DNA from: Nymphaea colorata
Taxonomy: Eukaryota
Direction: 5' to 3'
Length of the DNA: 64,000 bases
Assembly (NCBI RefSeq): GCF_008831285.2
Contig: NC_045138.2
Location: forward strand, 29,140,001 to 29,204,000
Every line of letters begins with the position of its first letter. Position 1 is the first letter of the stretch. Position numbers and translations under genes: made by a program. This document shows positions 2,571 to 57,815 of this stretch, in pieces. The notes beneath the pieces are model-generated. The model had not been told where the DNA came from. It searched no databases and saw nothing but the letters and a program-made list of their open reading frames with translations.

Positions 2571-5466
2571 CTACCCTTTTATCTGATATAATCGGTTAAG
2601 CCAAATTGAATGAAGAACCATATGAAATATGTCATACTTGACAGGCTTTAGATGCCACAGGAAGTGCTTTTGAACTCTTTTCACCCCTGTCTGCAGCATA
2701 AGATACTTCTTCTCTGGGACTGATTGACAACAATATTTCCTTCAAACTTGGGAATGTCCTTCTCAGGTATAATGACTGAAAAAGCATCCCAATTTAGGAC
2801 TTCAAAGAAAGGTGGAACGAAATTGTCTGACATAATTACAGGAACACACACATAGTAACCTCTAGGACAGATGCAGTACTTGCTAGATTTCATGTGTTCT
2901 ATGTAGGAAACTTTGCTTGCGACTCCACGGGGCATAGCTACATAGATTTTCATGTCAGTATCTTTCTTCTCCCATTGATTAAGCAAAATGGGTCTAAGAT
3001 AACCATGCATTCGTCCAGCAAAGAAGGTGAGGATTGGCCTTTGACATGCAGGCTTACCTCCAACATCCCTAAGAGGATTTTGTCCAGAACGAATGTTCGT
3101 CTGTGGAAAAGAAACATCTTTACCCAACTTGAAGAAGCCTTGTGAGACATCTGCATTGCATATAGCTTTTATTGCATTCTTTCGAAGTTCACGGTGCAAC
3201 TTTGTTTCAAATGGTCCTTGAGAATCTAGATGAATCAGAATGATATTTCAAGGAGAATTGCCTCAGGAGGTCAAGAGAAACAACAAGGCTATGTTCAACT
3301 GACAATAGGGAACAAAGTATATACCCAGTCATGGCAGGCAACAATAGAGTGATCAGCACCTCCAGTTCTATTCCGGAAACGATATTTTCTAGCCAGCATG
3401 TCAACGTAGTCTTTTAAGATACAGCTAAAGGACTTACCCTATGTGAATTAGGTACATACAGTAACTCCCGCATCATGGAGGAACTGTAGGGCATGTAAAA
3501 CATGTGAGTTTTTCTTGGGTCCTTGACAACAAATCTTCTGTTCCCTTCCATCTGTTTCATAAACCATCCCTCAGAAGCATAAATGCCCCTGAAAAAGGGT
3601 TTGTGGAAAATGGGTTTGCTTCCTTCCTTATAGATATAAACCTTGAACATTTGCTCCATTAGTTCGTAGCTCCTGAAACAAGGACAACAAAGTTCTTATC
3701 ATCGACATGAGGGCAAAATTCTAGATGCAACTAAATTTCTTTAGGGAAAATAACCATAGTTTCACAGCATAATCTTCGAGTATCAGCTATAGATAGGAGG
3801 AACTTCAAGGAAGAAAATTGCATGTTTAGTTCAACAGCATTTGCAGCAGAAATTTTTTCTAAATCGCAACAGGGACCATGGTGCGTGACATTTGAAATTC
3901 TAACAGCACACAACTGCGGTTTTCAATTAATGTACCATACTGCAGTAGTTGACTTATGTTAGACCAAAAAAAGAAATCACATAGTTATAGTCTACTCTTT
4001 GAATACATGAGAAACAATGGTGGAAAACACTGCATAGACTGTCTAAGATTTTTCTGAACGCTCATTAGAGACGGTCATGGTTTCAAAATGTCAATGAGAT
4101 ACAACTAAATATTCAGTTAATCTAGCACTCTGCAAGTTTAACAGCATATAATTTCATCAGGCAAAGATAGAAAAACCAGAACTGCTTTAGGCATAACAAA
4201 AGATCCTAAAGCATGAAACTTCAGATCTTTCCGTGTCGTGAATATTACATCTTGATTGCTATTCTTTACCAAGAATTCATGATGTGAAAAACAATCGGAA
4301 TTCTGAATAACCAGCGCCAGTTGCAGACAAAGGTGTTAGTCATGTACCTCTTGAACATGGAGACATTACGCAATACTGGTGCATAAAGATCGCGATCGTT
4401 TCTTATCATAGGTGCATTTTGAATTTGTTTCCTTGCAGATAATAGCTCCTTGTCCCGTGGCGATGGCCACCGAGGTCTCTGCATAGGGAAAACCAAGTAT
4501 GAGGAATAGATTCATCACGACGGCATCACGCATGGACGTGGATTATGCTGTTGATCCATACCATAGAACCAGAAGGAATGCCATTCCAATCAACCATGTA
4601 AACGCTCTCAACAATCTTATTCCTCATTGTTAGGCGTGGAGTTAATGGGTCCATGGAATCGGGTCAGCAGCTCCATCGTCTCCTCCATGCGCTCCCTGTG
4701 AGCTTCCACAGCAGCCGTTACGTCCTTGGAAGTCACCTTGTATTTGTTAGCCATAGCTCTGATACCAGTGTTAGCCGCCTGCTAACAGAGGGCTATTACT
4801 CCTGCGAAAGCCCAGCCTTCACATCGGTCCTTATATATACTGCGGTCCAATACATGGGATGGGTTTATTAAGACCTACCATCTACCCGACCCATTCCTAA
4901 CAGACTTCACGCAGGGCAGATCCTGCCACCGCTGACCTGACTCCATGGACCCATTAACTCCACGCCCAACACTCATCCAGTGCTTTTGTCTCGGCTCATT
5001 GATAATCACTAAACCACCATGTAAGGCATAGCAAGTGTTCGTTTTGGAGCCTAACTCTACCTTTCTCACCCCCATGGATGATGACAAAATGGGAACAACT
5101 GGGGTCACTAGCAAAGTTCCTTTGATTTTCCCATGACTTCGTCACTCTTAAAAGAAACGACTGGACATGATTCAGCAGCCGGAACAGTAGCTGCCCCTTT
5201 TCCATCTACATCCTTTCCTTCTTCTCTCTGTTCCTCTTGGATACCTCCATCCATACTCACAACTTCAGTTTCCTCCACTTCATCGTTAAAAATAAATGTA
5301 CGATTAGAGTTACCAGAATCACTGAGTCCAGGGTTATAGGCACATGGACTTTGCTGTCAGGAAACAAAGAGCAGAAATTACTCAAATAAGAAATACTGCA
5401 AGATTGGAACACTAGCAGAAATGTTCCCAAGATAACAACCACCAAAGTTAGCTTTCTGTGTTCCAT
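2571..5466 (-). pseudogene. GT47/exostosin gene B, copy 1 (pseudogene)
   Basis: Same 4-exon layout as 28062-30706. Lesions: ~70-bp deletion near 5326, 344-bp insertion at 4628-4971, 1-bp deletion near 3419, 36-bp deletion at 2857/2858 removing EVNSPRILEAIY, and +1 and +4 insertions near 2720-2746. Confidence 0.93.
4628..4971 (-). mobile_element. LTR-retrotransposon-derived 344-bp element with inverted termini (single LTR + PBS + gag-like start + inverted LTR end)
   Basis: TSD CTCAT at 4623-4627 and 4972-4976, single in copies 2 and 3. Ends TGTT..AACA. Inverted repeats 4628-4668 and 4931-4971 match 38/41. On the minus strand: LTR-like 4971-4769 (TG..CA, TATATATAA near 4831-4839), PBS TGGTATCAGAGC at 4767-4756, ATG at 4754. 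Confidence 0.9.
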
Positions 5467-12480: not shown

Positions 12481-15400
12481 ATGTCAAGAATGCCCCCCGT
12501 CTCAGGCCTCAGGCTCTTCTTCTCGACTTCTCCTCTGTTAATCCCCAAACCCAAAACCCCTCTCATCCCTCTCCGACCTTTCCCGCCACCTCGCTTCACC
12601 GTTCTCTGCGCATCATTCGGCAAGAAAACTCAGTTTCCGAGAAGGTTTTCAACTCTCAGAAACCCAAAGACCAGAGAGAAACCGCCACAAATGGAAGAGA
12701 AAGAGAAGGAAGGCGTCGGTTTCAACAAAAGGAGGGCAGAAGGGAAGGATAAAGGCCAACCGAAGAATCTCCAACTCAAAAGCAGAAAATTAAATCCTGT
12801 CAATACTATCTGTTACGTTCAGGTTGCTCTCTTCGTCTTTGTATTCGTTGCCATTGCTGTTTTCTTACTTCTTCTTTGAGTTATGACTAAAGAGTTGCTT
12901 TTGGGAGATGAGAGCAAAGAGGATCCCTGAATCAGACATTTTCCCCATGTGGGCATCATGAATTTGGCTTACTTGTGACAGATTTTGGGAACCGGAATGG
13001 ATACACAGGACACTTCACCATCGGTTTTGCTGTTCTTCGATAAGCAACGCTTTTTTTTTAATGCTGGAGAGGTGATGCTTCTTCAATTTATTTAGAATAC
13101 TGGCTTCTTCTTATTAAAATTGTGGGCTTCTGGTTATCATGGCAACTTGATTTTGAAAGTTTACATTGCTAAACTCGTCGCGGTGTGAACCTAGCTTGGG
13201 GTTTATAGCATGGTAGGAGTTGGTAAATGTCGATGTGTTCAAAAATCTTGCTGATTAGAAGTCGATACTCATGCTTTTGAAGCAACTGTGATTTTATTCT
13301 TTAAAATTCCGTTGTTGCTTGACTTTCTTTTTTCCCTCCGCCAGGGCTTGCAACGTTTCTGCACGGAGCACAAGATTAAGTTGTCTAAGGTAAGGTCCTT
13401 GTCTATGCGTTTGTTCAAGGAAAAGCTTGAATATGTCTTCATTGGTGATTGCAACTGTGAGTTTTAAAGCTGTTGAAATGTCATTCAGATTGATCACATA
13501 TTCCTCACTCGTGTTTGCTCTGAAACTGCTGGTGGTCTTCCAGGTTAGTGATTCTCTAACACGGTTGTACATTTGCAGCTTGTGCTTTATAATAATTCGC
13601 ACGCTCCAATTGCCATGAATGAAAAACTGAATTAGATGGCATTGAATTGAGGACGTAGTCACGTAAGCACATGATTGAGATCTGATCTCAGAAATTGTTG
13701 CGTGCTCTGCAGGACTTTTATTGACAATGGCCGGCATTGGTGATGATGGGATGAGTGTAAGTGTGCTTTATCTCAAAATTAGTTTATGTTATTTTTAATG
13801 GTCTCTTCCTAGTTCCTACAAATTTTCGAGCACTTGCAGCACAAGTTTACAATTTGTGAAGCTCTGACTATATTTTCTCGAGCTTCTCATATATGTTTCT
13901 GTAAGAACTAAGAACTTACTTGACACAAAATCTGGCTCACTTGGGTGCACTCTCTTCTTGTGGAAACCATGCCACTCACTACAGTTATGATCACGCACCA
14001 TGATGCTCCACTGGGAAATTAGGGATGTTCTTTGTTCCCCTATGTGCTCTAATATGTTTTTTTGTTTGTACTGAAGGTTAATATGTGGGGTCCATCTGAT
14101 CTCAAGTATCTGGTGGATGCAATGCGGACCTTTATTCCAAATGCTGCTACAGTGCACACTCATAGTTTTGGACCTGCACCTGGCTCAATCTCCGGCCTAC
14201 TTAAAGATCCAATAATCCTCGTGAATGATGAAGTTGTCAAGATATCGGCAATTATCTTGTGCCCAGCTTTGTCTGGAACTAACGAAAGTATAGACCAGGT
14301 TGACAATGGTTCAGATGTTACTGGTTTTGACTTTGAAAGAAATCTGGATGACTTCTCCAAGTACCCATCTTTGAGTCCACCTGGATCTCCTAAAAAAGCA
14401 AGTTTGGCTACGAAACCTGGTGATTTGGCTGTTGTTTATATGTGTGAGTTACCTGAGATCAAGGGGAAGTTCGATCCGGCAAAAGCTATGGCCCTTGGGC
14501 TGAAACCAGGGCCAAAATATCGTGAGCTGCAGCTTGGGAACACTGTTATGTCTGATCGTAAAAACATAATGGTAGGAGAAATAAAAATAATTGTATCCAT
14601 TTCTGTAGCCTATGTTGAATTACCAAAGGCACTTGACTTAAAATAAGGTACTTGTGCAGGTGCGCCCAAGTGATGTACTCGGTCCATCAATTCCAGGACC
14701 AGTTGTCATTCTAGTGGACTGCCCGACACTATCTCATGTTCATGGATTGGTTTCAGTTCCATCTCTCAAAAAGTATTACGTGGACTCAACTGACCCCGAT
14801 TGGGGTAGCTCTAAGCCCGTGAATTGTGTTATTCACTTGGGTCCTGCTTCTGTGACAAGTACAGAGTCCTACAGGAAATGGATGTCAAGATTTGGTGGGG
14901 CACAACATATCATGGCTGGACATGAAATGTAAATTTCTCATATCTTAAATTTCTTATATCTTAGTTGTTTTCTATTACCAGCATGATGTTCTGCCCGCAA
15001 GCAATTAGAAGTAGTACAACGGTTCTGGCAACAAAGTGTTGTTTATCTTTTGTATTTTTTTTTTTCATTATTTATCCTTTACAGGAAAAACGTTGAAATA
15101 CCAATCCTCAAGGCCAGTGCAAGGATAGCGTCGAGACTGAATTATGTGTGTCCACAGCTCTTCCCTACAAATGGATTCTGGACTGTAGGGAATATTGACA
15201 GCTGTCCCATGGATTCAATTTCCTCAAGCAAGGTTTGTTATTTCTAGTCTCTAACAATTAAAGATCATAATCTATGTTACAACATGCACTTGACATTCCC
15301 CATGCACGCACATATCTTTAGGTTCCTGAAATATATGTATTAGTTATGAAGGATCCAATCAATCAAGTTGATCAAATGACTTATGATGGACACAATCGTG

Positions 15401-19975: not shown

Positions 19976-21134
19976 AGCCCGAGGCCTACGGGGGATTCGC
20001 CCATCGGAATAGGCTCACTAGTGGGTTAGTTTCGCCAGTAGGCATCTCTGGTCGACGGTTCGTCGGAAAGATGGCTGGCGAATGAGAACGATAGGAGGAG
20101 AGAGAGGGGGTTTGGCGAGCCGTTCTAAAGTATTTAACCCTCACGATTCGTCTTTGACGTGATAATGAAACGTTAGAGAAAGACTAACAACAAACGCCCA
20201 GGCGAGACGTCAGAAATTTCTAAATCACGTACACCACGCAACTGTTGACGGTCAGCGAACGCATCAATAAATAGACTTTCAATGGCGCAAAACATCAACT
20301 CGTAAGGAACAATCTGCCTTTACTGATAAGCCCTCCTTCGTTAGTAAAGATTTTATGGAATAAGATTTGACTTTTACTGAAGTCTTCTAGTAGAAGCCAA
20401 GCCATTGACATTCCAAAGGGTAGCATTTCATACATGTTGCATGTGAAACATCAACAACAAACATAATTGGAAGCCAGAAGAGGCATTATCAACCTCAGAG
20501 GCGCTTGGGGAACCCGAAAGGAAGATATAAGGTAAAGAGAAGGAATTCCGACTCAATTGCAATAAAATATGAAATTCTTGTATCATCAGAATCGGGAGAA
20601 CCAAACACAAACTGGTGCGAGCATGTTCGGATCATAATTTTCTCCACTTGTATCGAGAAAGCAGAAACTTTACATTGTTCTTAAGAAATTCCCATCAACC
20701 ATAAAGAATCAAAGAAATGATCATGAATTGAGAAAGTAAACACCTTCCAAAGACGGGCAAAAACTTACAGATTTCGAAACAGTCGAAAGGAAAAGGGAAG
20801 AGCAAACTTTAAGATCTTCGAACGAGGCGATCAGCAAGGCAACGAAAAGGCTCTCACGATAACATGGAGAAAATGAAGATGGGTAGGAAAAAAATTGGTA
20901 AGATCCGCCTAAGCGGGTTGCCTTAACCATATGTGGTAACGGAAAGCTCGAAAGCTATTCCCGTCCCTGTCAGGGGAGATGCCAACCGTCTCTCCTTTCA
21001 ACGAACACGGTGAAAGTGTTACAGCTTTTCTATTAAATTACGCAAGTCTTTTCCAAAATCGGCCAATACAGGACTATTTTCCCCCTCTCACACCACCACT
21101 TCCTGGGGGTTTCGCTCCCCAGCAAAACCCAGTC

Positions 21135-22948
21135 CCGAAGAAAGTTTTCACTCTCATTAACCCAAAGACCAGGGAGAAACCACCACATATGGAAGAGAAA
21201 GAGGAGGAGGCATAGGCCATGGGTCCACCAGGATGGTGGTTCTCTGACATGTTAATACAGTTGCACCTTGTTCTTTTTTATAGTATTTGGGGCGCTCGAA
21301 ATTGCCATGTGAGAAAAACTCAATTTGATGGTGGAGGACTTGAACACATAATTAAGAATCTGAGATCTTATCTTAGAAACTGTTGTTTGTTTTGCAGGAC
21401 CTCTATTGACAATGGCCACCATTGGTGATGATGGGATGATTTTTAGCGTACTTAATCTCGAAAATTAGTTTGTGCTATTTTTATGGTCTCTTCCTAGTTC
21501 CTACCAATTTTCAAGCACATCTAGCCCCACTGAGCAATTTGCGAAATCTCTGACTATTTTCATCTAGAGCTTCTCGGATATGTTTCTTTTAGACATGACT
21601 TGATTCAAAATCTTGTTCCTTGCCGTTTCCTGCTCTTATTTTTCTGTAATGGCGTCTTCTTCGTCCTTCCCATACCCATCGACTCTCAACGTTTGGAAGT
21701 TGGTTTCGCTGAAGCTCAACTCTGATAATTATTTGCTATGAAAAATCTTGGCGTTTGGTGAGAGCCAACATCTTCAGGGTATCATCACTGGTGAAGTTAC
21801 TCTATCGGATCAGTTCATATCTGATTCCTGCTCGGTTGGTAGATCTGCCAAAACCATTTTAAATCCTGCCTTCGTTGCTTGGCGTAAGTCCGACCGCCTC
21901 CTCAAGAGATGGATTACCAGCACGCTTTCAGAAAGCGTCTTCGGCCTCGTGGTTGGCCTTGATTCTCTATTACTATTCTCCTTTGATGAAGTAGATAGCC
22001 TCACAGCATACATACTTTTTTTGCAAAGAGATTGTTGTTGCTGTCCCCTCCTATATCCCTTTTTACATGCACGCCTCTAGAAATTAGTGTGAAGTATGAT
22101 CTGGTAGACTTTTAATTGGGCTCATATGCTTAAATTTTTGCTTTTGCCACTGGCAGTTGTCCTGACTTGTGATCTTTACATTCTCTCAGCTAATTGTTTT
22201 ACACGTTCCAAGATTGCGTGGCATTCATCTCATTTCTTTCACTCATTGATTCATGTTTTATTTTAGTGAGTTGCTTTATTCCATAAATCAATATTTCAGG
22301 CTCTTTCTCAAAAACGTGAATCAGAATGTACATAGTTTAAGAACTAGGGATGCATAAATCACTTTATTTTTTAGTCAACATGGGAATTGACAAATGGCTG
22401 TGGTTTTCTCATACGTTAGAAACGAAAAAATATACTTATAACATGTTTAAAATTTGATGATCGAGTATAACTGTAATTGTTCTTCTTGACAGATGATTCC
22501 CTGAAAGGTCTGGCACTTCATATAGGACAGTTTACTAAATGAAAGTGAAAGACACATACGTATCATTTGGAGGCTGGAGAAAAGGTGTTTTACAAACCGA
22601 ACCACTTTAGCCCTTCGTTCTCTGTTTTCTTATTTTCTATACCACTCACTGCAGTTATTTTCACGCGACATTCGGGAAACTAAGGATGTACTTTGTTCCC
22701 CTATGTGCTCTATTCTTTTTATTTTTCCTTGTACAGAAGGTTAATACGTGGGGTCCTTCTCATCTGAAGTGTCTGATGGATGCAATCCGGCCCTTCATCC
22801 CAAGTGCTGCTACAGTGCACATTCATAATATCGCGAAGTGCAGCTTGAAACATTGCCATGACTTATCGTAAAAACACAATGGTTGGAGATATCAATTGTA
22901 TCCATTTCTGCAGCCTATGTCGAAGTAGGCAGTTGAGTTAAAAATAAG
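21135..22948 (+). pseudogene. Decayed partial duplicate of the tRNase Z gene
   Basis: 21135-21210 matches exon 1 ([15 protein letters not shown]). 21350-21615 matches exon 5 plus flanking intron, with the donor lost. 22640-22948 matches intron 5, the start (VNTWGPSHLKCLMDAIRPFIPSAATVH) and end of exon 6, and intron 6. Large internal deletions. Confidence 0.88.
21649..21965 (+). mobile_element. Ty1/Copia gag N-terminal fragment
   Basis: MASSSSFPYPSTLNVWKLVSLKLNSDNYLL*K...NPAFVAWRKSDRLLKRWITSTLSESVFGLVVGLD follows the Copia gag pattern (KL..NYLLW; W...D.....I..TLS), with a stop at the conserved W. No LTR or PBS seen. Confidence 0.8.
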
Positions 22949-23459
22949 CTAAAATTGAGACTGGCACATACAAAACATAAGACTAAGATTCCAAAACCGT
23001 GAGCAATAAAATCTTGGAATAAACTCCCTAATTTGCAAATAAACACTTACAACATCTAATAAATAGAAAGGATTCTTGCGCTTTTGCCTTTATTCCATAA
23101 AAATATTCCAGCATGGTGCTCTGGGCAATTCTGAATTGGCTTTTGGATTCATTAGGTACGAGTTTGATGTTTTGCCAACTCGAACATAGAATATTATGGC
23201 ATACCATGGATGAGTAGGATTTTCACATAACAAATAACCGTCCTGTAGAAATCCTTATTTACAGCAATTAGCACACATACCCATGCAAAGAAGTTCCTCT
23301 GATCAAAGCATATCTACAATATAATCTCTCATATGACCCCTTAGGTAGAACTTTGTCATAAAATAAGCACTGCATGCAAGTCCTGGTTCTGTCAAATGCA
23401 TCATGTCCTTTCTTTCATTGCATTGAGCAATTCAAGTGGCAATTAGACCTCTAAACAAG

Positions 23460-26269
23460 TCATATCCTTATCTGCCTTAATCTGCTAAACCAAACTGAGT
23501 GAAGAATCATGTGAAATATGTCATATTTAACAGGATTTGCATGCCAAAGAAAATGCTTCTGCACTCTTCTCACCCCCAACTGTAACATACGATACCTGTG
23601 GTCTGGGATAGATAGCAGTATCTCCTTTAGTCTAGGAATGTCTTTCTCACGTACAGTTACTGCAAAAGCATCCCAGTTCAGAACTTCATCAAATGGTAGC
23701 ACGTAGTCATCTGAGATTATAACAGGAACACACTCATAGTATATGGCCTCAACCACACGTGGGCTGTTCACCTCATAACCTCTGGGACAGATGCAGTACC
23801 TGCTAGATTTCATATTCTCTCTATATGACCCCTTGCTCTGGATCCTATCAGGCATTTCACCCTGTATTTTCATGTCTGTGTCTTGTTCCCAGTGCTGCAA
23901 CATGACCGGACGAACTCTACCATGCATTTGACCTGCAAAGAAGGCCAGAGTCTGTCTTTCATGTGCCGGTTTACCTCCCACATCTTTGAGAGGATCCTGT
24001 CCTGAGCGAATGTATGTAGTCGGAAGTGAAACATCTCTGCCTAACTTGAAGATGCCTTTTGAAGGATTGGCATTGCACAGTGCCTTGATTGTATTCAATT
24101 TAACCTCCTCATGAAGCCTTGTCTGTTGTGGTCCCTGTGAAAGTACAAGTAGCAATTTTACCAACCGAGGGGAGTCAATCAGGATATGATGCATTCAGGA
24201 TGACGAATTGCCTATTAGACCAAATTTAGGATTCAAAATGCTTACCCAGTCATGGCAAGCAACAAGAAAGTGATCTGCTCCATGTGTTTTATTCCAGAAA
24301 GGATATTTTGCAGCAAGCATACTGATGTAGTTTTTCAAATATAGTGCGAGAAATTTCTGCCTCGTTGCTCCAGTCGCATTTGTTGCACTTCGTAGCTTCA
24401 GTGCACTATATGGCAAGTAAAACATGTGAGCTCTGCTTGGATCGTTTGCAGAAAAGTATTTGCTTGTTTCCATCAGTTTCATAAACCATCCTTCTGAAGC
24501 ATAGATTCCCCTGAGATAAGGTTTATGAAAAATGGGCGATCCTCCATCCTTGTAGACGTAGACCTTAAATATTTTTTCCATCAACTCATAGCTCCTGCAG
24601 ATGGTTTGACCATGAGGCCGATATTTTCAGTATGAAAATGCTCTCCAACAGTAAAAAGGTTACACTTTACAAGCAAACTATAATGGAGAATAGAAAAACC
24701 TTAAGTAGCTGATTGCTTGCAGAACTGAAATTTACAGTTATTTCCTCACAAGCACCAATACAAGCAAAAGCAAAGCATCCGAAATTTTAATGTGACGAAA
24801 GAGAATATCTAGATCTATCTTATGTAAGAGATTGATGTATGCACTATTATGCCAAAGATCAAGAGGTGAAAATATGAATTAAGGCAAACAACTGAATTAC
24901 AGTAGTTTTTCGACCATGGTTCCCTTTAAATATTTCATATGTTCAATAGCGTGCTTATGGTCCAAAACTTGTGATTAGACTGCGTGTTCACCATAGTCAC
25001 ACGCACAGGGGGCAGTTACCAAGATTTGGCAGGGAACCTTCATTATTTGTTTATGCAACAAGAAGCTGCCAACAACCTACGCAGAATGCCATTTATTGTG
25101 CTTTTCTTACTAAATATAATGATCTGAAATTTCTTTGAAAAATATAGCGCTATTACACATAAGAGCTCATAATTAACTAGTAGAGAAATTTTAGTTTCAT
25201 GTATTGGGTGACTGTAAGAAGTGTCATATGTTCTCTTTATTTTGCCAACTGCAAAATGTAGAAGCTGTAAAAAATAACTTTCACTTTAGAACTATCTTAA
25301 GCCCAAGAACTCCATGACTGCACTAAGAAGTAGTTGCTATCTCTTCACCCATTATTGGTAATTGTAATCAAGACAGTGCAACTAAACGGGTCTTACAAGA
25401 TATCGAGTATATTCACCTCTTAAACATGGAAATGTTCCGAAAGAGAGGTGCGTACAATTCACGGACATTCTCCAGATGAGGAGCACGATAAATTTCTCTT
25501 TTCGCAGACAAAAGCTCCTTTTCCAAAGGTGAAATTCTTACTGGCTTCTGCATAATATGGAGCAATATCACAAAAACCTACCTAGGGGGCAATCATGTTA
25601 GTAATCAAGATAAGAGCATCCAACATCACATACCTTACTATACGAATTGCCACTACGTTTCTTCCCGGCTTGATCCTCCCCTGTAAGGAAACGGCTCATT
25701 CCTGCGGAATTACCAGTCGAACTCACTGACGTCCTCTGTGAAGGATATGAACGTTTTCTTTTAGCAGCCAAAGCAGTTGCTTCTGCTCCCAATGTAGGCA
25801 TTTTCCTTGGCACCATTAAAGGGTTCTCAGTTGGTGTTCCTACCATTTTCGCATTCACGTGGGTAGCAAGTGGTAATGCTGCCTTTTTATGTCTTCCTCT
25901 AAGCATTTCTTTTGCATTATCTGGCATCTCAAAATCTCTCTTCACACTCAGAATATTAGAGACTTCACCCTGATCACCCAAAGAAAATAATCTGCTGCTA
26001 GATTCGAAGAGACCGACGTCGCCAACGGCTTCAGCAAGTTTTGTAAAATTATCGGGTGGGGAAACTTCTAGAAAACCCATGCTGTCAAATTTTGTGCCCA
26101 TCTTTTTAGGCAGAGGATTGTTGGTATTCGACAAAGAAGATGAAAGCTCGTTCAAGTAGGGAAACGTATAGAACTGAAGCTCTAGAACAAGAAACACCAT
26201 GACACCAAACACTACACTGGTCTTTCGTCTGATCCGAACTTTCATTCTTATCCAATTTGAGGTCCCCAT
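23460..26269 (-). CDS. GT47/exostosin-family glycosyltransferase A, copy 2, intact, 596 aa
   Basis: Exons 25634-26269, 25417-25547, 24246-24594, 23460-24134 (1791 nt, in frame). N-terminal TM segment. Motifs LYAPLFRNISMFKRSYELME, GIYASEGWFM, GADHFLVACHDW, SSRYCICPRGYEVNSPRVVEAIYYECVPVII, YDIFHMILHSVW. Confidence 0.95.
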
Positions 26270-27636
26270 CCTTATATACCCTCAAATTATTGACTCTCCA
26301 TTGCTTCGAAAATGAAACGAAAGCTTCTCAACAACGCCAAGTAGTTGACAACAAAGAGTGTTAAGTAGTCCAAAGTTTATGCATTGCACGAAAAAGTCGA
26401 AATACCCACAAGGAATCCAGCAAGAAAAGGATCATAGTAAGATGTTCAAATCAGACCAAAAAGAAAATGATTTATGCTGTAACACCGACATAAGAAAATC
26501 CGACAGCAAGTTAGCTCCTTTTCTCCAGAAACTTCCACTTTTTTCGCATGAAAAAGTACCTGCGGCTCCCCAAAACCCTCGTCTTCTTCTTTCCTCTAGA
26601 TCATGTTAATAGTTTGGTTGTAATCTTACAGACGGGAAGTGCGGGGGTTTCCGCGTACATTGTTCCGGCGCCTCTTATGTCCTTCATTTACACATAAAGC
26701 ACCTACTTGTTCATAATTTTCGGAAAGCCGCCTAACTTGTCAATTATAACGTTCAGGTGCCGGTCCTTTGAGAGCATGCTCCTGTCGACAAGTCCGTGCA
26801 GGAAGTAAATTGTCAAGATTCGGAACAAGCCTAGTCCGACTAACTAAGATCCGACATTTACATATATTAGTTTCGGATTATTATTGAATTTCAGGGTCAA
26901 TTTGTGCAGTACGTGAAAACTCCGATGGAAAATGGCACACTGAATCTGAATCAATTTGGTAACTGGATCCTATTTTCTTTACTAAATCCAACTAACCTTA
27001 TTTGGATTTGAGTCAACCATCAGATAAATGCAGCCACTCAAATTTGTCTATCATAAGTCCAGCATAATTATATCCAGCCTAGTCACCGACAAACTAAAAT
27101 TCAACTAGTTTGTATTCTAGAGTTGCCATCTATGTGGTGGTATGCCAAAGGTAAAAATTATCCCTTTTAAGATACATTTTTCAATTTGAGTGTTATGCAC
27201 GTTGCTATTTACAGTTTAGAAAAGTAACACTCACAAAAATCGAACTAGACTAGCGACCTGTTGTCCATGCATTCCTCCGGCAACCATTAATGAAGTGATT
27301 GTTCTATCATTTTATATATGTAGCCTGCACTCCAACTGTTTACATGTATTTATTTACTAAAATAGCAAGACTAGTTAATTAGGGAATCTATGACTCAAAG
27401 TAGTAAATTTACAGCCCGCTTCTTGTTTACAGAATGAAGCCAAAGATTCAATGCCTTGAGTTAGGTAAAGTGAGATTTTGCCATCTTGTTGTTTCTAATC
27501 GAGGAAACATCCCTCAGGATTTTCCCGAAAACAGAAGAAATAAAACCATTCAAAATGTTCCCCGATCTCCAGACATACACTCTGCTTCAGTTTGCGCAAG
27601 AGGTAGTGCCTAGTATAGCACTACATCACCCTTTGA

Positions 27637-27796
27637 TAGGGCGGCGCCAAGAATTTTTTGTCTGAGTTTCAAAATTTTAACAAGCGTCAAAATAGAAAAT
27701 TTCAAATTATATATATATATTACACTAATTTTTTTAGATTTATATATAATTTTGTTAAGTTTTTAAAATCCGAGGGGAGGGGGGGACAAGGCCCCT
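27637..27796. mobile_element. Short truncated MITE-like insertion specific to copy 2
   Basis: AGGGCGGCGCCAAGAATTTT...AT-rich...GGGGGACAAGGCCCCTG replaces ~10 bp present in copies 1 (2299) and 3 (54906). Confidence 0.6.
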
Positions 27797-28061: not shown

Positions 28062-30706
28062 CTAACCTTTTATCTGATATAATCGGTTAAACCAAATTGA
28101 ATGAAGAATCATATGAAATATGTCATACTTGACAGGCTTTAGATGCCACAGGAAGTGTTTTTGAACTCTTTTCACCCCCGTCTGCAGCATAAGATACTTC
28201 TTCTCTGGGATTGACAACAATATTTCCTTCAACTTGGGAATGTCCTTCTCAGGTATAATGACTGAAAAAGCATCCCAATTTAGGACTTCAAAGAAAGGTG
28301 GAACGAAATTGTCTGATATAATTACAGGAACACACTCATAGTATATTGCCTCAAGGATCCGCGGACTGTTGACCTCGTAACCTCTAGGACAGATGCAGTA
28401 CTTGCTAGATTTCATGTGTTCTATGTAGGAAAGTTTGCTTGCGACTCCACGGGGCATAGCTCCATAGATTTTCATGTCAGTATCTTTCTTCTCCCAGTGA
28501 TTAAGCAAAATGGGTCTAAGATAACCATGCATTCGTCCAGCAAAGAAGGCGAGGGTTGGCCTTTGAGATGCAGGATTACCTCCAACATCCCTCAGAGGAT
28601 TTCGTCCAGAACGAATGTTCGTCTGTGGAAGAGAAACATCTTTACCCAATTTGAAGAAGCCTTGTGAGACATCTGCATTGCATATAGCTTTGATTGCATG
28701 CTTTCGAAGTTCACGATGCAACTTCGTTGCAAATGGTCCCTGAGAATCTAGATGAATCAGAATGATATTTCAAGGAGAATTGACTCAGGAGGTCAAGAGA
28801 AATAACAAGGCTATGTTCAACTGAACAATAGGGGACAAAATACATACCCAGTTATGGCAGGCAACAATAAAGTGGTCAGCACCTCCGGTTCTATTCCAGA
28901 AACGATATTTTCTAGACAGCAGGTCAACGTAGTCTTTTAAGAATACAGCTAAAGGAATTACCCTATGTGAATTAGGTACATACAGCAACTCCCGCATCAT
29001 GGAGGAACTGTAGGGCAAGTAAAACATGTGAGCTTTTCTTGGGTCCTTAACAACAAATCTTCTGTTCCCTTCCATCTGTTTCATAAACCATCCCTCAGAA
29101 GCATAAATGCCCCTGAAAAATGGTTTGTGGAAAATGGGTTTGCTTCCTTCCTTATAGATATAAACCTTGAACATTTGCTCCATTAGTTCGTAACTCCTGA
29201 AACAAGGACAACAAAGCCCTTATCATCCACATGAAGGCAAAATTCTAGATGCAACTAAATTTCTTTAGGGAAAATAACCATAGTTTCACAGCATACTCTT
29301 TGAGTATCAGCTATAGATAGGGGGAACTTCAAGGAAGAAAATTGCATGTTTATTACGACAGCATTTGCAGCAGAAATTTTTTCTAAATCACAACAGGGAC
29401 CATGGTGCGTGACATTTGAAATTCTAACAGCACACAACTGTGGGTTTCAATTAATGTACCATACTGCAGTACTTAACTTATGTTACACCAAAAAAAAAAT
29501 CACATAGTTATCGTCTACTCTTTGAATACATGAGAAACAATGGTGGAATACACTGCATAGATTGTCTAAGATTTTTCTAGACACTCATTAGATGCGGTCA
29601 TGGTTTCGAAATGTCAATGAGATACAACTAAACATTCAGTTAATCTAGCGCTCTGCAAGTTTAACCGTATATAATTTCATCAGGCAAAGATCGAAAAAAC
29701 CAGAACTGCTTTAGCCATAACAAATGATCCTAAGGCATGAAACTTCAGATCTTTCCATGTCGTGAATATTACATCCTGATTGCTGTTCATTACCAAGAAT
29801 TCATGATGTGAAAAACAATCGGAATTCTGAATAACCAGCGCCAGTTACAGACAAAAATGTTAGTCATGTACCTCTTGAACATGGAGACATTACGAAATAC
29901 TGGCGCGAAAAGATCGCGATCGTTTCTTATCATAGGTGCATTTTGAATTTCTTTCCTTGCAGATAATAGCTCCTTGTCCCGTGGCGATGGCCACCGAGGT
30001 CTCTGCATAGGGAAAAACAAGTATGAGGAATAGATTCATCACGACAGCATCACGCATGGACGTGGATTATGCTGTTGATCCATACCATAGAACCAGAAGG
30101 AATGCCATTCCAATCAACCCTGTAAACGCTCTCAGCAATCTTATTCCTCATCCAATGCTTTTGTCTCGGCTCATTGGTAATCACCAAACCACCATGTAAG
30201 GCATAGGAAGTGTTCGGTTCGGAGCCTAACTCTACCTTTCTCACCCCCATGGATGACGACAAAATGGGAACAACTGGAGTTACTAGCAAAGTTCCATTTG
30301 ATTTTCCCACGACTTCGTCACTTTTAAAAGAAACGACTGGAGATGATTCAGCAGCCGGAAGAGTGGCTGCCCCTTTCCCATCTACATCCTTTCCTTCTTC
30401 TCTCTGTTCCTCTTGGATGCCTCCATCCATACTCACAACTTCAGTTTCCTCCACTTCATCGTTAGAAATAAATGTACGATTAGAGTTATCAGAGTCACTG
30501 AGGTCGTTAATCTCGCCAAAATCCGTTACTTCGGGAGCAGAATATTCACTACTGGGAGTACCCATGTCCAGGGTTATAGGTACATGGGCTTTGCTGTCAG
30601 GAAACAAAGAGCAGAAAGTACTCAAATAAGAAATACTGCAAGATTGGAACACTAGCAGAAGTGTTCCCAAGATAACAATCACCAAAGTTAGCTTTCCGTG
30701 TTCCAT
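28062..30706 (-). CDS. GT47/exostosin-family glycosyltransferase B, copy 2, intact ORF, 592 aa
   Basis: Exons 30086-30706, 29872-30002, 28848-29196, 28062-28739 (1779 nt, in frame). TM segment KLTLVIVILGTLLLVF, MRPRW..RDKELL, GIYASEGWFM, YCICPRGYEVNSPR. Has ACHNW in place of ACHDW. Confidence 0.93.
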
Positions 30707-33700: not shown

Positions 33701-34693
33701 TGCCTCGTAGACTTGTTACATTATTAAAAGCAGTTTCTTGGAAACATGGCAAGTTAATCTCTATCGTCATTCTGCCTCTTACTTTTGTTCCATTAGTTTC
33801 CATTCAATCTTCGTTTCGTCGTTTTCTATTAATTTTCTACACTGCCTTCTTGTATGTTTCCCTTCTAGTTTCCGGGATGCTTCAAAAGAGCTTCATATGA
33901 ATTACATCATGCATCCGTCTGCTTAAAGTTTTTAGTATATTACATGAGTGGACCACATAAAAGTATATTGGCATGCACCCTTCTATTTCTCATGTCTTCT
34001 AAAAATATTTGATAGTGGACCGCACAAAATTCATAAAGATTTTCTTCTTCCAATTCCTACCAAAAACAATTGAAAATTCAAATACATTCTTTCCGTTGTT
34101 AAACAGAAAAGCAAACATGTAATTAGCCTTTAAGTTGGCCTCTCATAAATCTTTACTATCTAGGGAATCACAGTCCAGATGATTCTACTTTTATTAGGGC
34201 TAGGATTTTTTTTTTTTTGTTGTAAGAGCCGAATTATAGTTTTAACAGAAGCCAAAATATAATTTTTCAAATTCTTTATATAGGCTAAACTAAAATTTTT
34301 AAAATAAAATTTTTAAAATTTTAGTTTATCGAGTTTTCACCAATGACAATATTTTCATTAATTGCTGGTTATATTAATAACTGACCTACTTTCTCTCCAA
34401 AACCAGCTGCAAGATCTATACCTTTTTATCTACGCTAGTCTCCTTTCCTAAAACTGAGTCATGCCGTTCATGGAGCTCAATGAATGTAAAGTTAGCGGAA
34501 AATAAGTTTTTTTCGGATGGGCATTTTGAATTATTGAAAAGGAAGAAAGGAGACTTCTGCACGGTAATTGGGAAGAAACTACGAATCATGGACCGAGCCA
34601 CCAACTTAAATATGTCATGGAGATCTGTCAAAGGCTATTAGATCGAGGTGCAGGATTAGTTTGCAACCGAACCCCAAAAGAATTCTTCGGAGA

Positions 34694-35308
34694 ATGCGTT
34701 TATCTCCTCTGATTCTTCTCTTCATCCTACCATTTTCTCTGGCAGAAGAGGAGACACCAATTTCCTCTAAAATCTCTGGCTACTTCATCGTGTTCTTCTT
34801 GCTCCTTTGTGCGGTTCTTCTCAAGTACATACTGCGAAATTGCAGAAGCAGGGGTAGCACCAGAGACAGCAACCTCAACGTCGTCAATGTAGAAGTTGGT
34901 GATCTTCAAGGGCTCTCTGTTGGTGCTCCCCAACAATCCTCTGGTGGAGTTGACAGGAACCTCATCAATTCACTGCCGGTTTTCGAGTTTGCAGCCCTCA
35001 CTGAATCGAGCGTAGGCTCGGAATGTGCGATTTGCCTTGGCAGATTTGAGGGCAAAGATTCGCTTCACTTGCTTCCAAAGTGCAGACACGCTTTTCACAG
35101 AGAGTGCATAGACAAATGGCTTGAAGATCATTCTAGCTGCCCCATCTGCAGGCAAAGCGTCGACGCTCAGGACATCTCTGCTTTTGTATCCAGCAATTCT
35201 CGTGATTGTACAAACCTGAAGGTAGATGGTGCAGATAGGAAACGAGTTCATGGTTTTGAGCATAGGATCACTGTTTTAGATGCAAATTTTGACAGTACAA
35301 GTCGCTAA
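34694..35308 (+). CDS. ATL-family RING-H2 E3 ubiquitin ligase, 204 aa, intronless, possibly C-terminally truncated
   Basis: Signal peptide MRLSPLILLFILPFSLA, TM segment, GVD (GLD-like) motif, and RING-H2 CAIC-x15-CRHAFHRECIDKW-x6-CPIC. Confidence 0.88.
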   Translation: MRLSPLILLFILPFSLAEEETPISSKISGYFIVFFLLLCAVLLKYILRNCRSRGSTRDSNLNVVNVEVGDLQGLSVGAPQQSSGGVDRNLINSLPVFEFAALTESSVGSECAICLGRFEGKDSLHLLPKCRHAFHRECIDKWLEDHSSCPICRQSVDAQDISAFVSSNSRDCTNLKVDGADRKRVHGFEHRITVLDANFDSTSR

Positions 35309-44399: not shown

Positions 44400-45343
44400 C
44401 ACATTCATTTCCTCCAAATTTTTTGATGTGGCCACAGAATGATGCATCTTCTAGGGTCTATGTTACAGTTACCATGTAAATTGTTCTATACTTAATACTT
44501 TTAACCAATTAAATGAGAAGCTCAAATTACAAAAAACAAAAAAAACAAAAAAACAATTACTGTTATGTTACAACAAGTTCTCAAGACATAACATAATTAC
44601 GTTTTCATCTTTCATATGAAAGAGGTCAAGAGTCTGCATTACTTGTCATTTTATTCCTTCAAATTAATCCTAGCTAATCAAGACTTGGAGATCCATAATG
44701 TGGACAATGTAAAACTTTGTTAAAAGGGGATCCATCAAGACATATGAATGTTTGACATTAGTAACATAGTGTTATTGTTTCATGAATTTATCCTACAGAT
44801 CCATTAAATAGTATATTGTAGTATTCCATGAATCTATCATATTTTTCTATGGGGATTCATGAAATAGTAACAGTTATTATTACCAAACAACCTTTTGTAG
44901 AGACTTTAAAGGGCATATTGTTAATACATAGATCAATATGTATCAATTTTATCTCATGACTTTGGATGAGTGACCATCAATATTTGAAAGGAATTTTCTA
45001 TAGTTCGATTAAGACTCAGTTAAGAGAAAGAATGTTGCACTAAGGCTCAACCAGCTCAATGAATGGGACATACTGCTAGCTAGACTTGATTAGGCTTGAT
45101 CAAGGTTTAAAACTGGTTATAGATGCCAATTAATTCAGTCAATATCATTATTGACCAATCACAATCTAAATTCATTAATGCAGAGAGAACTAAATTGATT
45201 GTGAAAATAGGGTGTGACACTTTACCCAATTTCATCCAGGCACTCCCTTAGGCTGAACCTCAAAGGAAACAGTTGGTGGAAAAAACAGCAGTGTTGTCAA
45301 AGAATACTATACTCTTTGACAAACTCTCTTTTCCCCCCTAAAG

Positions 45344-46648: not shown

Positions 46649-47915
46649 GATTTTGGGGCACTCACCCTCACAGATTACGGATGTCACTTGCACGCACCGG
46701 CAAGGTTTTACTTTCGCTGCTTCAACAAGCTCAATTTGTTTGCTTCAGAATGAATTAATTGCCCTCAAATGTGTTGTTCGGCTTTTTTGTTCTTTCATCT
46801 TTAAATGTACCAATATAAACTATGGTATGCTCATTCATTTCAGAATTCGGCAATGTTTTAATTCGGCAATATTAGCCAGAAGTTTAAAGCCTGTTGCGAG
46901 CGACAGATGAATTAATAGCTAATTGCCAAAGAGTCCTCCATTCACGCTTTATTAATAGCTAGTACAGTTATTGTAAAATTTTCAGACCTTCCCTTCCCAT
47001 TAAAGGAAATCACCTGCCCCACCATCACCACTCCTTCCGATCGAGATTTTTTTTTAAAACGTAAAGCCTAAAGAAAGCGCATTTTCATCCCAACCAGAAG
47101 GCAGAAAGAAAAGCAACAATCAACTGATAATAAACAGCTGATAACAAGGCCTCCGTCTGCCAAATTCTTTCATATACAAATCAAATCAAAACTCACAGAT
47201 TGCAGACTAACAAAAGCCTTCTTTCATTTAAAACATCTACTTTGACAATGGTAGGCTCCGAGCTATGACTCAACTGAGATTTAATAGGATAAAAAGTTTT
47301 ACTGTGAAAAGAACTTGGAGAGAGCATACAAGTTAAAAATGTGATCTACCTTTCAAAGCATACACGTAACATGTACTTTTCCTTCCAATGTAAAGCATGT
47401 GGGTCTTAAAAGTAATGTAGTCATTCGTATGATCTGAAATAAACATTATCTTCGAATCCTACTTTTTTAGAACCGATATCTCACCTACCCATGTCAATAA
47501 TATTTAATATGCATTAATGGTTGGTGAGCACAACATGATAAAAGGGTGGGCGGTCTGCCTGCCACTTTGAGATATATATGGATACTTGGGAAAATTAACC
47601 AATTGCAGTTTCTTATAGAATTTTTCTATGGGCGGATGAAAAGCTCTCCCCTCTCCCTTTTACCTTTACCTTTTCTTCCTCAGCCCCTCTCCCTCTCCCT
47701 CTCTGCCCTCTCCTTCTCCCCCCCTCTCCTCCCCCATCCGCCTTCCCCCTTCCCCAATGGAGCTTCCCTGGTTCACGCGCATGCCTGGAATTGTCCACGC
47801 CGTCGCCAACTTCTCATTCCCTCCCGCTTTACGGCTTCCCCTCCCGGAAGAGTTTCTTCGATTTTGTTTCTGGTTCATTTATCTTGCTTTCTTGTTTTAT
47901 CTGCTGGGGTCGGCG

Positions 47916-55169: not shown

Positions 55170-57815
55170 CTACCCTTTTATCTGATATAATCGGTTAAAC
55201 CAAATTGAATGAAGAATCATATGAAATATGTCGTACTTGACAGGCTTTAGATGCCACAGGAAGTGTTTTTGAACTCTTTTCACCCCCGTCTGCAGCATAA
55301 GATACTTCTTCTCTGGGATTGACAACAATATTTCCTTCAACTTGGGAATGTCCTTCTCAGGCATAATGACTGAAAAAGCATCCCAATTTAGGACTTCAAA
55401 GAAAGGTGGAACGAAATTGTCTGATATAATTACAGGAACACACTCATAGTATATTGCCTCAATGATCCGCGGACTGTTGACCTCGTAACCTCTAGGACAG
55501 ATGCAGTACTTGCTAGATTTCATGTGTTCTATGTAGGAAAGTTTGCTTGCGACTCCACGGGGCATTGCTCCATAGATTTTCATGCCAGTATCTTTCTTCT
55601 CCCAGTGATTAAGCAAAATGGGTCTAAGATAACCATGCATTCGTCCAGCAAAGAAGGCGAGGGTTGACCTTTGAGATGTAGGCTTACCTCCAACATCCCT
55701 CAGAGGATTTCGTCCAGAACGAATGTTCGTCTGTGGAAGAGAAACATCTTTACCCAACTTGAAGAAGCCTTGTGAGACATCTGCATTGCATATAGCTTTG
55801 ATTGCATTCTTTCGAAGTTCACGGTGCAACTTTGTTTCAAATGGTCCCTGAGAATCTAGATGAATCAGAATGATATTTCAAGGAGAATTGCCTCAGGAGG
55901 TCAAGAGAAATAACAAGGCTATGTTCAACTGAGCGATAGGGAACAAAGTACATACCCAGTCATGGCAGGCAACAATAAAGTGATCAGCACCTCCAGTTCT
56001 ATTCCAGAAACGATATTTTCTAGCCAGCATGTCAACGTAGTCTTTTAAGAATACAGCTAAAGGACTTACCCTATGTGAATTAGGTACATACAGTAACTCC
56101 CGCATCATGGAGGAACTGTAGGGCAAGTAAAACATGTGAGCTTTTCTTGGGTCCTTGACAACAAATCTTCTGTTCCCTTCCATCTGTTTCATAAACCATC
56201 CCTCAGAAGCATAAATGCCCCTGAAAAAGGGTTTGTGGAAAATGGGTTTGCTTCCTTCCTTATAGATATAAACCTTGAACATTTGCTCCATTAGTTCGTA
56301 GCTCCTGAAACAAGGACAACAAAGCCCTTATCATCCACATGAAAAAGTCTAGATGCAACTAAATTTCTTTAGGGAAAATAACCATAGTTTCACAGCATAC
56401 CCTTCGAGGCTTCGAGTATCAGCTATAGATAGGAGGAACTTCAAAGAAGAAAATTGCATGTTTAGTTCAACAGCATTTGCAGCGGAAATTTTTTCTAAAT
56501 CACAATAGGTACCATGGTGCGTGATATTTGAAATTCTAACAGCACACAACTGCGGTTTCGAATTAATGTACCATACTGCAGTAGTTAACTTATATTAGAC
56601 AAAAAAAATCACATAGTTATCGTCTACTCTTTGCATACATGAGAAACATTGGTGGAAAACACTGCATAGATTGTCTAAGATTTTTCTAGACGCTCATTAG
56701 ATGCGGTCATGGTTTCGAAATGTCAATGAGATACAACTAAACATTCAGTTAATCTAGCGCTCTGCAAGTTTAACCGTATATAATTTCATCAGGCAAAGAT
56801 CGAAAAACCAGAACCGCTTTAGCCATAACAAATGATCCTAAGGCATGAAACTTCAGATATTTCAGTGTCGTGAATATTACATTCTGATGGCTATTCATTA
56901 CCAAGAATTCATGATGTGAAAAACAATCGGGAATTCTGAATAACCAACGCCAGTTGCAGACGAAGATGTTAGTCATGTACCTCTTGAACATGGAGACATT
57001 ACGAAATACTGGCGCGTAAAGATCGCGATCGTTTCTTATCATAGGTGCATTTTGAATTTCTTTCCTTGCAGATAATAGCTCCTTGTCCCGTGGCGATGGC
57101 CACCGAGGTCTCTGCATAGGGAAAACCAAGTATGAGGAATAGATTCATCACGACAGCATCACGCATGGACGTGGATTATGCTGTTGATCCATACCATAGA
57201 ACCAGAAGGAATGCCATTCCAATCAACCCTGTAAACGCTCTCAGCAATCTTATTCCTCATCCAATGCTTTTGTCTCGGCTCATTGGTAATCACCAAACCA
57301 CCATGTAAGGCATAGGAAGTGTTCGGTTCGGAGCCTAACTCTACCTTTCTCACCCCCATGGATGATGACAAAATGGGAACAACTGGGTTCACTAGCAAAG
57401 TTCCATTCGATTTTCCCACGACTTCGTCACTTTTAAAAGAAACGACTGGAGATGATTCAGCAGCCGGAAGAGTGGCTGCCCCTTTTCCATCTACATCCTT
57501 TCCTTCGTCTCTCTGTTCCTCTTGGATACCTCCATCCATACTCACAACTTCAGTTTCCTCCACTTCATCGTTAGAAATAAATGTACGATTCGAGTTATCA
57601 GAATCACTGAGGTCGTTAATCTCGCCAAAATCCGTTACTTCAGGAGCAGAATATTCACTACTGGGAGTACCAATGTCCAGGGTTATAGGTACATGGGCTT
57701 TGCTGTCAGGAAACAAAGAGCAGAAAGTACTCAAATAAGAAATACTGCAAGATTGGAACACTAGCAGAAGTGTTCCCAAGATAACAATCACCAAAGTTAG
57801 CTTTCCGTGTTCCAT
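55170..57815 (-). CDS. GT47/exostosin-family glycosyltransferase B, copy 3, intact, 592 aa
   Basis: Exons 57195-57815, 56981-57111, 55956-56304, 55170-55847 (1779 nt, in frame). Retains GADHFIVACHDW and YCICPRGYEVNSPRIIEAIYYECVPVII. Confidence 0.95.

What the first reader, a model, noticed from the sequence alone, without database searches (positions are those of the whole stretch)
4623..4976. Miniature retroelement with inverted termini: one LTR, PBS and gag start, closed by an inverted copy of the LTR's own 5' end
Seen: a 344-bp insertion, absent from both paralogous sites, with perfect 5-bp TSD CTCAT and TG..CA ends. On the minus strand it reads as a 203-bp LTR-like unit (TGTTGGGC...GCTAACA, with TATA box), one spacer base, PBS TGGTATCAGAGC, then ATG-initiated MANKYKVTSKDVTAAVEAHRERMEETMELL. 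There is no PPT or second direct LTR; the element ends in the reverse complement of the first 41 nt of the LTR (38/41, three transitions). Established: 5-bp TSD with TG..CA is the LTR-integrase signature, this PBS is complementary to tRNA-iMet, and TRIMs and solo LTRs have direct or single LTRs, not long TIRs. Inference: integrase inserted a cDNA with two U3-type ends. It is either a one-off template-switch product (GCTG sits at the junction) or a member of a possibly undescribed MITE-shaped non-autonomous family mobilised by retrotransposon machinery.
Basis: partly seen in the sequence, partly recalled or inferred. Interest (0 to 1): 0.9.

Follow-up and report, generated by a model that had tools for sequence, protein, structure and literature searches.

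The report
One-off retrotransposon scar with inverted ends
A 344-base piece of a plant retrovirus-like jumping gene sits in a dead gene copy with the same tip at both ends, likely a single copying error that was still inserted, and probably not a new family of mobile elements.

Summary
The 344-bp insert (4628-4971) has TG..CA ends and a 5-bp duplication, is absent from both paralogous genes, and has 41-bp inverted arms matching 38/41. It holds one 203-bp LTR-like unit, a tRNA-iMet primer site and about 30 gag codons.

New here: the gag start is real. It is 24/32 identical to a Nymphaea thermarum protein that carries a gypsy-type protease, so the parent is likely a chromovirus (Reina-like). The gag similarity runs about 9 nt into the inverted arm, so the junction likely sits at a microhomology between gag and LTR bases 34-41.

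Best reading (0.5): one template switch during reverse transcription gave a short cDNA with two U3 ends, which integrase inserted. Rivals: inverted dimer joined or collapsed by repair (0.22), rearrangement keeping the U5 tip (0.1), spreading family (0.12).

A family is unsupported. No second copy lies in the 64-kb window, and the element lacks the PPT and 3' repeat needed to be copied again. Copy number and read support are untested because no genome or reads were available. A maize element with two inverted TRIMs under one TSD is published.

The parts
4623..4627 (.). Target-site duplication, copy 1 (CTCAT)
   Evidence: single copy at both paralogous empty sites
4628..4668 (+). Inverted arm: copy of LTR bases 1-41 in opposite orientation, 38/41 identical; supplies the second TG..CA end
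4659..4668 (-). Junction zone: gag codons 29-32 overlap the inner end of the arm; inferred microhomology of about 7-10 nt
   Evidence: inferred from one relative at protein level
4665..4754 (-). First 30 codons of a Ty3/gypsy gag; the frame runs on through the arm and stops in host sequence after 45 residues
4756..4767 (-). Primer-binding site complementary to tRNA-iMet, one base from the LTR end
   Evidence: same 12-mer and a one-base spacer in beet Reina elements Bingo5-7 (PMC3605345 supplement 1)
4769..4971 (-). 203-bp LTR-like unit (U3-R-U5 inferred), TG..CA
   Evidence: identity as a complete LTR is inferred from its ends and the adjacent PBS, no parent available
4830..4839 (-). TATA-like box in the LTR
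   Evidence: seen in the sequence; function untested
4972..4976 (.). Target-site duplication, copy 2 (CTCAT)
2571..5466 (-). Host gene: pseudogenised exostosin/GT47 glycosyltransferase copy; the insert lies in its first coding exon, same strand
   Evidence: several indels; pN/pS 0.93 on its branch; ends read off the alignment
28062..30706 (-). Intact GT47 paralog 2, empty site at 30147-30151
   Evidence: 592 codons, no internal stop
55170..57815 (-). Intact GT47 paralog 3, empty site at 57256-57260
   Evidence: 592 codons, no internal stop

Best explanation
The 344-bp insert, made of one LTR-like unit, a tRNA-iMet primer site and about 30 gypsy gag codons closed by an inverted copy of the LTR's first 41 bases, likely arose once when the reverse transcriptase of a likely Reina-type chromovirus switched templates at a short microhomology, and was likely inserted by that element's integrase through two U3-type ends. 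Steps: (1, inferred) inside the particle, a plus-strand DNA stalled about 41 nt into U3 and its 3' end paired with gag codons 29-32 on a sense strand; or, equivalently for the product, the sense strand stalled in gag and folded onto U3 bases 34-41. (2, inferred) Extension to the template ends gave a short duplex with the U3 tip at both ends. (3, scar shown, enzyme inferred) Concerted integration left TG..CA ends and a 5-bp duplication in exon 1 of a GT47 gene copy. (4, inferred) The product is a dead end: its transcript would lack most of U3, a 3' R repeat and a PPT.
For: Real 5-bp TSD against 2 of 2 empty paralogs; 93.4% of plant LTR elements have 5-bp TSDs (PMC6317226, passages). Gag start 24/32 identical to KAF3772426.1 of Nymphaea thermarum, which carries an RVP_2 protease. 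tRNA-Met priming is used by chromoviruses and not by non-chromovirus gypsy elements. Similarity continues into the arm: codons 30-32 need only 2 base changes to encode the relative's residues; 454 of 60,000 window 9-mers (0.8%) and 2 of 390 LTR 9-mers do as well. The junction is gag to LTR interior, not to an LTR tip, so integrase did not make it. The arm ends exactly at LTR base 1, and 41 bp exceeds the ~20-bp integrase footprint reported for HIV-1 (PMC11054761, passages). Three differences in 41 fit decay of once-identical arms if the insert is about as old as this gene copy's branch (118 of 3,514 sites; P(>=3)=0.53), and that branch looks neutral throughout (34 nonsynonymous, 10 synonymous changes, pN/pS 0.93). 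Template-switch products integrated under one TSD are described in cereals (PMC1950507, passages). Ty1 integrase inserts foreign DNA that only ends in TG..CA (PMC2939329, passages).
Against: The parent's DNA was not obtained, so the microhomology rests on one relative at protein level and a codon window chosen after seeing the alignment (two codons alone: 955 of 60,000, 1.6%); the 5' LTR's own bases score 3, not 2. Microhomology fits repair-mediated joining equally well. The arms are not identical: if the insert is a tenth as old as the branch, P(>=3 differences) is 0.003-0.05, which would call for two different templates. The position-5 difference makes the right tip match the U5 end over 6 bases, as a retained U5 tip would. 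Copy number is unknown.
Confidence: 0.5

Rival explanations
1. Two cDNAs, or an inverted dimer of them, were inserted by their U3 ends in one integration event; host repair then joined them, or later collapsed the long palindrome, at the gag/U3 microhomology.
For: Published precedent: two inverted Zma-SMART TRIMs under one TSD in maize, shown among the PCR-checked tandem structures (PMC4717578 section 8). Two donor molecules would explain 3 differences in 41 at any age. Microhomology is typical of end joining (own knowledge).
Against: For a full-length parent of about 5-6 kb (Reina sizes in beet) nearly all of both molecules must be lost in one clean join; only one junction is seen. Needs two events rather than one.
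Confidence: 0.22
2. Member of a small non-autonomous family with inverted ends that is re-mobilised in trans by chromovirus proteins (MITE-shaped, Ginger-like).
For: Compact size, clean 41-bp inverted termini, intact PBS and TATA box. Ginger1 and Ginger2 show that integrase-like enzymes move elements with 40-270 bp TG..CA inverted ends (PMC2836005). Not excluded: only 64 kb could be searched.
Against: 0 other copies in the window; no relative in metagenome or viral contigs (weak, these are not plant genomes). No PPT or 3' R repeat, so the standard cycle cannot rebuild it (inference from the cycle described in PMC7197481). Integrase-related DNA transposons are reported absent from ferns and seed plants (PMC6839031, passages). 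The arms have not been kept identical.
Confidence: 0.12
3. An ordinary U3...U5 element was made or inserted, and a double template switch replaced its interior and 3' LTR by an inverted copy of LTR bases 7-41 while keeping the outermost U5 bases.
For: The right tip matches the U5 end at position 5 and the U3 start at position 7, a mosaic pattern. U3 and U5 tips share 7 of 9 bases, enough to seed a switch. It needs no unusual integrase substrate.
Against: Rests on one base, which is also an ordinary transition or a family polymorphism. Needs two switches across kilobases.
Confidence: 0.1
4. Assembly artefact, or an unrelated DNA-transposon MITE that captured an LTR-PBS-gag piece.
For: Read support could not be checked. 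Hairpins can cause assembly errors (own knowledge).
Against: The arms differ at 3 of 41 sites, the TSD is clean and both flanks are colinear with two paralogs. The inverted repeat is the LTR's own first 41 bases, leaving no room for a foreign terminal repeat.
Confidence: 0.06

Closest known systems
Ty3/gypsy chromoviruses, Reina clade most likely (PMC3605345 passages and supplement 1; PMC6317226 passages)
   Same: tRNA-iMet PBS one base from the LTR, 5-bp TSD, TG..CA, short LTR (beet Reina 293-503 bp, the shortest of the clades whose rows were seen), gypsy-type protease in the gag relative.
   Different: No second direct LTR, no PPT, no pol; ends in an inverted piece of its own U3. Clade not tested on RT or integrase.
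Maize tandem TRIM with two inverted Zma-SMART units under one TSD (PMC4717578 Fig. 2C legend, section 8 read)
   Same: Small LTR-derived insert whose two ends are inverted copies, one 5-bp TSD, single reported locus.
   Different: There two whole TRIMs are inverted; here one LTR plus a gag stub plus 41 bp, asymmetric, with a junction inside U3.
Template-switch complex insertions of Angela, Squiq and Opie (PMC1950507, passages)
   Same: Abnormal reverse-transcription product integrated in one step with flanking TSD.
   Different: Those have three LTRs and are longer than a normal element; the word 'inverted' does not occur in that paper; this one is inverted and 344 bp.
TRIMs (PMC4717578, passages)
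   Same: Under 1 kb, LTR-derived, 5-bp TSD, in a gene.
   Different: TRIMs have direct terminal repeats and at least two copies with different TSDs; the first is not met, the second untested.
Ginger1, Ginger2/Tdd and GingerRoot (PMC2836005 passages and Discussion; PMC6839031 passages)
   Same: 40-bp-class inverted ends with TG..CA, integrase-type scar; Bao et al. proposed that Ginger1 ends came from two LTRs in opposite orientation.
   Different: No transposase, carries PBS and gag, TSD is 5 bp (Ginger1 4 bp and site-specific, GingerRoot 6 bp); no such family reported in seed plants.
Auto-integration inversion circles (PMC7197481, passages)
   Same: Inverted retrotransposon cDNA products made inside plant particles.
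   Different: Those are circles whose junctions involve an LTR tip (own knowledge); here the junction is at LTR base 41 and the product is chromosomal.

Membership tests
Ty3/gypsy chromovirus-derived sequence | tRNA-iMet PBS within 3 nt of a TG..CA LTR | tested here: met
Ty3/gypsy chromovirus-derived sequence | Gag related to a gypsy polyprotein | tested here: met
   24/32 identity to P0123, E 1e-4 library-wide; P0123 has RVP_2 above cut-off. That RVP_2 marks plant gypsy elements is recalled; P0123 is a gene model that may be spliced.
Reina clade | RT/RH/INT phylogeny and group II chromodomain | not testable with these tools
   no pol in the insert, parent not retrieved; short LTR and one-base spacer only suggest Reina
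Canonical LTR retrotransposon insertion | 5-bp TSD and TG..CA termini | tested here: met
Canonical LTR retrotransposon insertion | Two direct LTRs and a PPT | tested here: not met
TRIM | Direct terminal repeats | tested here: not met
   repeats are inverted; definition in PMC4717578
TRIM | Size under 1-1.5 kb, no pol | tested here: met
   344 bp
TRIM or any non-autonomous family | At least two copies with different TSDs | tested here: inconclusive
   0 further copies in 64 kb; genome not held
Solo LTR | Single LTR directly flanked by the TSD | tested here: not met
   PBS, gag stub and inverted arm lie inside the TSD
Ginger1 / Ginger2 / GingerRoot non-autonomous element | TIR of 40 bp or more with TG..CA | tested here: met
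   41 bp; range
Ginger1 / Ginger2 / GingerRoot non-autonomous element | TSD of 4 bp (Ginger1, metazoan Ginger2) or 6 bp (GingerRoot) | tested here: not met
   5 bp; only Dictyostelium TDD-4/5 have 5 bp
Ginger1 / Ginger2 / GingerRoot non-autonomous element | Autonomous partner with the same TIRs and a transposase | not testable with these tools
   no host genome
DIRS | Inverted terminal repeats with tyrosine recombinase and no TSD | tested here: not met
   a 5-bp TSD and a tRNA PBS are present; absence of TSDs in DIRS is recalled, papers seen as search listings only

The most novel reading that the evidence does not exclude
The insert is one copy of an undescribed class of MITE-shaped parasites born from a chromovirus LTR: two U3 tips act as terminal inverted repeats and the parent's integrase moves the unit again. 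That would be a captured step in the proposed conversion of LTR retrotransposons into Ginger-like DNA transposons, in a seed plant.
Probability: 0.1. Interest if true: 0.85.

Novelty: new variant of a known kind. Interest (0 to 1): 0.33.

Why it matters
As a one-off it is a clean natural record that a plant gypsy integrase likely accepts two identical U3 ends, with empty paralogous sites as controls and a readable junction. LTR finders that demand direct repeats would miss such inserts and MITE finders could mislabel them. A host transcript through it would form a 41-bp hairpin of U3 sequence (40 of 41 positions pair in the sense RNA), a possible small-RNA trigger against the parent family; this is untested. 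If copies with the same junction exist at other sites, it would be a missing link between LTR retrotransposons and integrase-driven DNA transposons.

Tried and rejected
Other copies in the window: BLASTN found only the element's own arms at meaningful E-values; no LTR 14-mer elsewhere.
Protein searches for the parent: the 45-residue frame against longer proteins, 0 of 1 candidate; P0123 residues 1-60 against longer proteins, 0 of 11 candidates. Of the 2 hits I dropped P0122, a lamprey Ig-repeat protein with no aligned stretch. Pfam: 0 families for the 45-residue frame. ESM Atlas: unnamed short clusters only, scores 0.90 or less.
Viral contigs: 0 of 149. Neither collection is a plant genome, so these blanks are weak.
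Rfam around the insert: one chance-level match, E 0.77.
Host lineage from GT47: best hits 63-75% identical in a length-limited search, not decisive.
Auto-integration was rejected because the junction is not at an LTR tip. A cryptic PPT before the arm (13 of 15 purines at element positions 286-300) is explained by Glu/Met codons and was not used.
A first codon count was out of frame and was replaced.
Earlier scan notes by sequence, words and place gave nothing.

Full report
Observation. The insert spans 4628-4971 (344 bp), begins TG and ends CA, and is flanked by CTCAT on both sides. The window holds three related copies of a plant exostosin/GT47 glycosyltransferase gene. Aligned with the two paralogous sites, the insert plus one CTCAT is the only gap, and both empty sites carry one CTCAT. 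The duplication is therefore a true target-site duplication. The first 41 bases on each end are inverted copies, 38/41 identical, with A/G transitions at positions 5, 31 and 34. The best terminal match in 20,000 shuffles was 24/41. The strand folds into a panhandle with z = -7.98 as DNA and -9.41 as RNA, 0 of 100 shuffles as good.

Anatomy. On the minus strand there is a 203-bp TG..CA unit with a TATA-like box, one spacer base, a 12-nt primer site, one base, then ATG. The same 12-mer, complementary to tRNA-iMet and one base from the LTR, is listed for the beet Reina elements Bingo5-7 (PMC3605345, supplement 1 read). There is no second direct LTR: no LTR 14-mer occurs elsewhere in the 64 kb, and no purine tract precedes a TG end. 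That the 203 bp are a whole LTR with U3, R and U5 is inferred from these features.

The parent. The 30-codon frame found 2 proteins at E <= 0.001 among 1.84 billion. One is a lamprey Ig-repeat protein with no aligned stretch and was dropped. The other, P0123, is KAF3772426.1 of Nymphaea thermarum: 24/32 identical from the first methionine, followed by a retroviral-type protease (RVP_2, 34.9 bits, cut-off 20.3). That this family marks plant gypsy elements is recalled. Among gypsy elements tRNA-Met priming occurs in chromoviruses and not in non-chromoviruses (PMC6317226, passages), and Reina had the shortest LTRs among the beet rows I saw (293-503 bp; PMC3605345, passages). So the parent is likely a chromovirus, probably Reina-like. 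The clade was not tested, and no full-length parent was found. The host may be a water-lily relative, but one search did not settle this.

The junction. Protein identity does not stop where the arm begins. Codon 29 ends in the arm, codon 31 (Thr) is identical to the relative, and codons 30 and 32 are each one base from the relative's residue. Only 454 of 60,000 window 9-mers and 2 of 390 LTR 9-mers fit codons 30-32 as well. So gag and the reverse complement of LTR bases 34-41 likely share about 7-10 nt, and the position-34 difference may simply be gag-derived. Caveats: one relative, protein level, and a window chosen after inspection; the 5' LTR's own bases score one worse. The junction joins gag to the inside of the LTR, not to an LTR tip, so it is not an integrase-made (auto-integration) joint like the inversion circles seen in Arabidopsis particles (PMC7197481, passages).

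Age. The host copy is a pseudogene: 64-bp and 36-bp deletions and several 1-4 bp indels, and 34 nonsynonymous to 10 synonymous changes on its branch (pN/pS 0.93, against 0.13 and 0.34 for the intact copies; 557 codons). Its branch carries 118 changes in 3,514 sites; with three unrooted sequences this is an upper bound. Arms identical at birth would show 3 or more differences with P = 0.53 if the insert is as old as the branch, 0.16 at half that age and 0.003 at a tenth, at equal rates. So the insert is old, or its arms came from two templates. It may have been what killed the gene (+349 bp shifts the frame), but two frameshifts lie upstream and the order is unknown.

Mechanism. Shown: the parts, the TSD, the empty sites. 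Inferred: one template switch in the particle at the gag/U3 microhomology gave a short duplex with the U3 tip at both ends, and integrase inserted it. Either a stalled plus-strand DNA primed on gag, or a stalled sense strand folded onto U3; the product is the same. The arm ends exactly at LTR base 1 and is longer than the ~20 bp an intasome protects (HIV-1; PMC11054761, passages). Ty1 integrase accepts foreign DNA ending in TG..CA when overexpressed (PMC2939329, passages). Reverse transcriptase switches need homology and occur between co-packaged RNAs (PMC6894440, passages); aberrant transfers at several stages are documented for HIV-1 (PMC12657518, passages); switch products under one TSD are described in cereals (PMC1950507, passages). 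I give this 0.5.

Rivals. (a) Two cDNAs or an inverted dimer inserted by U3 ends and joined or collapsed by repair, 0.22: microhomology fits equally, and a maize locus with two inverted TRIMs under one TSD is published (PMC4717578, section 8 read). (b) A double switch that kept the U5 tip, 0.1: the right tip matches U5 at position 5 and U3 at position 7, but this is one base. (c) A spreading family, 0.12. (d) Artefact or foreign MITE, 0.06.

Why a family is unlikely. An RNA from the LTR promoter would start after the TATA box and so lack most of U3; it would have no 3' R repeat for the first jump and no PPT (inference from the standard cycle). Re-mobilisation would need excision by integrase, which Bao et al. 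raise only as a possibility for Ginger1 (PMC2836005, Discussion read). Integrase-related DNA transposons are reported absent from ferns and seed plants (PMC6839031, passages). But only 64 kb could be searched, no genome was held and no read data were available, so copy number and read support stay open.

Comparison with what is known. It works like an aberrant LTR-retrotransposon integration. It is not a TRIM (repeats inverted), a solo LTR, a Ginger or a DIRS element by the features tested. Ten literature searches found no description of this LTR-PBS-gag-inverted-U3 layout; they cover open-access text only, and the sugar-beet survey of non-autonomous elements mentions only 4-bp terminal inverted repeats (PMC13570524, passages). 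Unchecked notes from this scan describe seven similar single insertions with inverted LTR ends in other genomes (6 of 8 notes, 1 of 1). These are leads, not support, but they suggest a recurring by-product rather than a rarity.

Verdict. A real, unusually readable feature; a new variant of a known kind; most likely a dead one-off. Interest 0.33. The family reading has probability about 0.1 and would deserve 0.85.

Noticed in passing
window 2571-5466, 23460-26281, 28062-30706, 52638-57815: Tandem cluster of GT47/exostosin genes in a segmental repeat: two intact copies, one pseudogene, and a more distant paralog near 23460-24626.
   Followed up: partly
window 20887-21008, minus strand: U6atac minor spliceosomal snRNA gene, 97.6 bits.
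   Followed up: no
window 51836-52251: 416-bp near-perfect hairpin (106-nt and 75-nt arms, 97% and 92%) around an AT run; MITE-like, no convincing TSD found.
   Followed up: partly
window 45334-46658: 58-nt inverted arms 1.2 kb apart; neighbouring 44976-45234 is repeated at 62784-63048; probable non-autonomous DNA transposon, no TSD found.
   Followed up: partly
window 47774-47945: GC-rich 37-nt inverted arms 98 nt apart, no Rfam match.
   Followed up: no
window 12625-14650 versus 21124-22951: Pieces of the gene upstream of the tRNase Z-like exons recur at 76-85% identity near 21-23 kb, a likely decayed partial duplicate; the tRNase Z label is recalled, Pfam gave only a weak metallo-beta-lactamase match.
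   Followed up: no
window about 27640-27795: About 150 bp AT-rich insertion with GC-rich ends present only downstream of paralog 2, probably a MITE remnant.
   Followed up: no
window 4769-4787 and 4745-4752: The LTR's 3' end forms a 7-bp hairpin, and its last 8 bases recur in gag codons 1-4; LTR bases 68-84 partly repeat the LTR's 5' tip. Meaning unknown.
   Followed up: no
window 34610-35308 and 61575-62225: Duplicated single-exon RING-H2 genes; the second copy diverges after the RING start and may be damaged.
   Followed up: no
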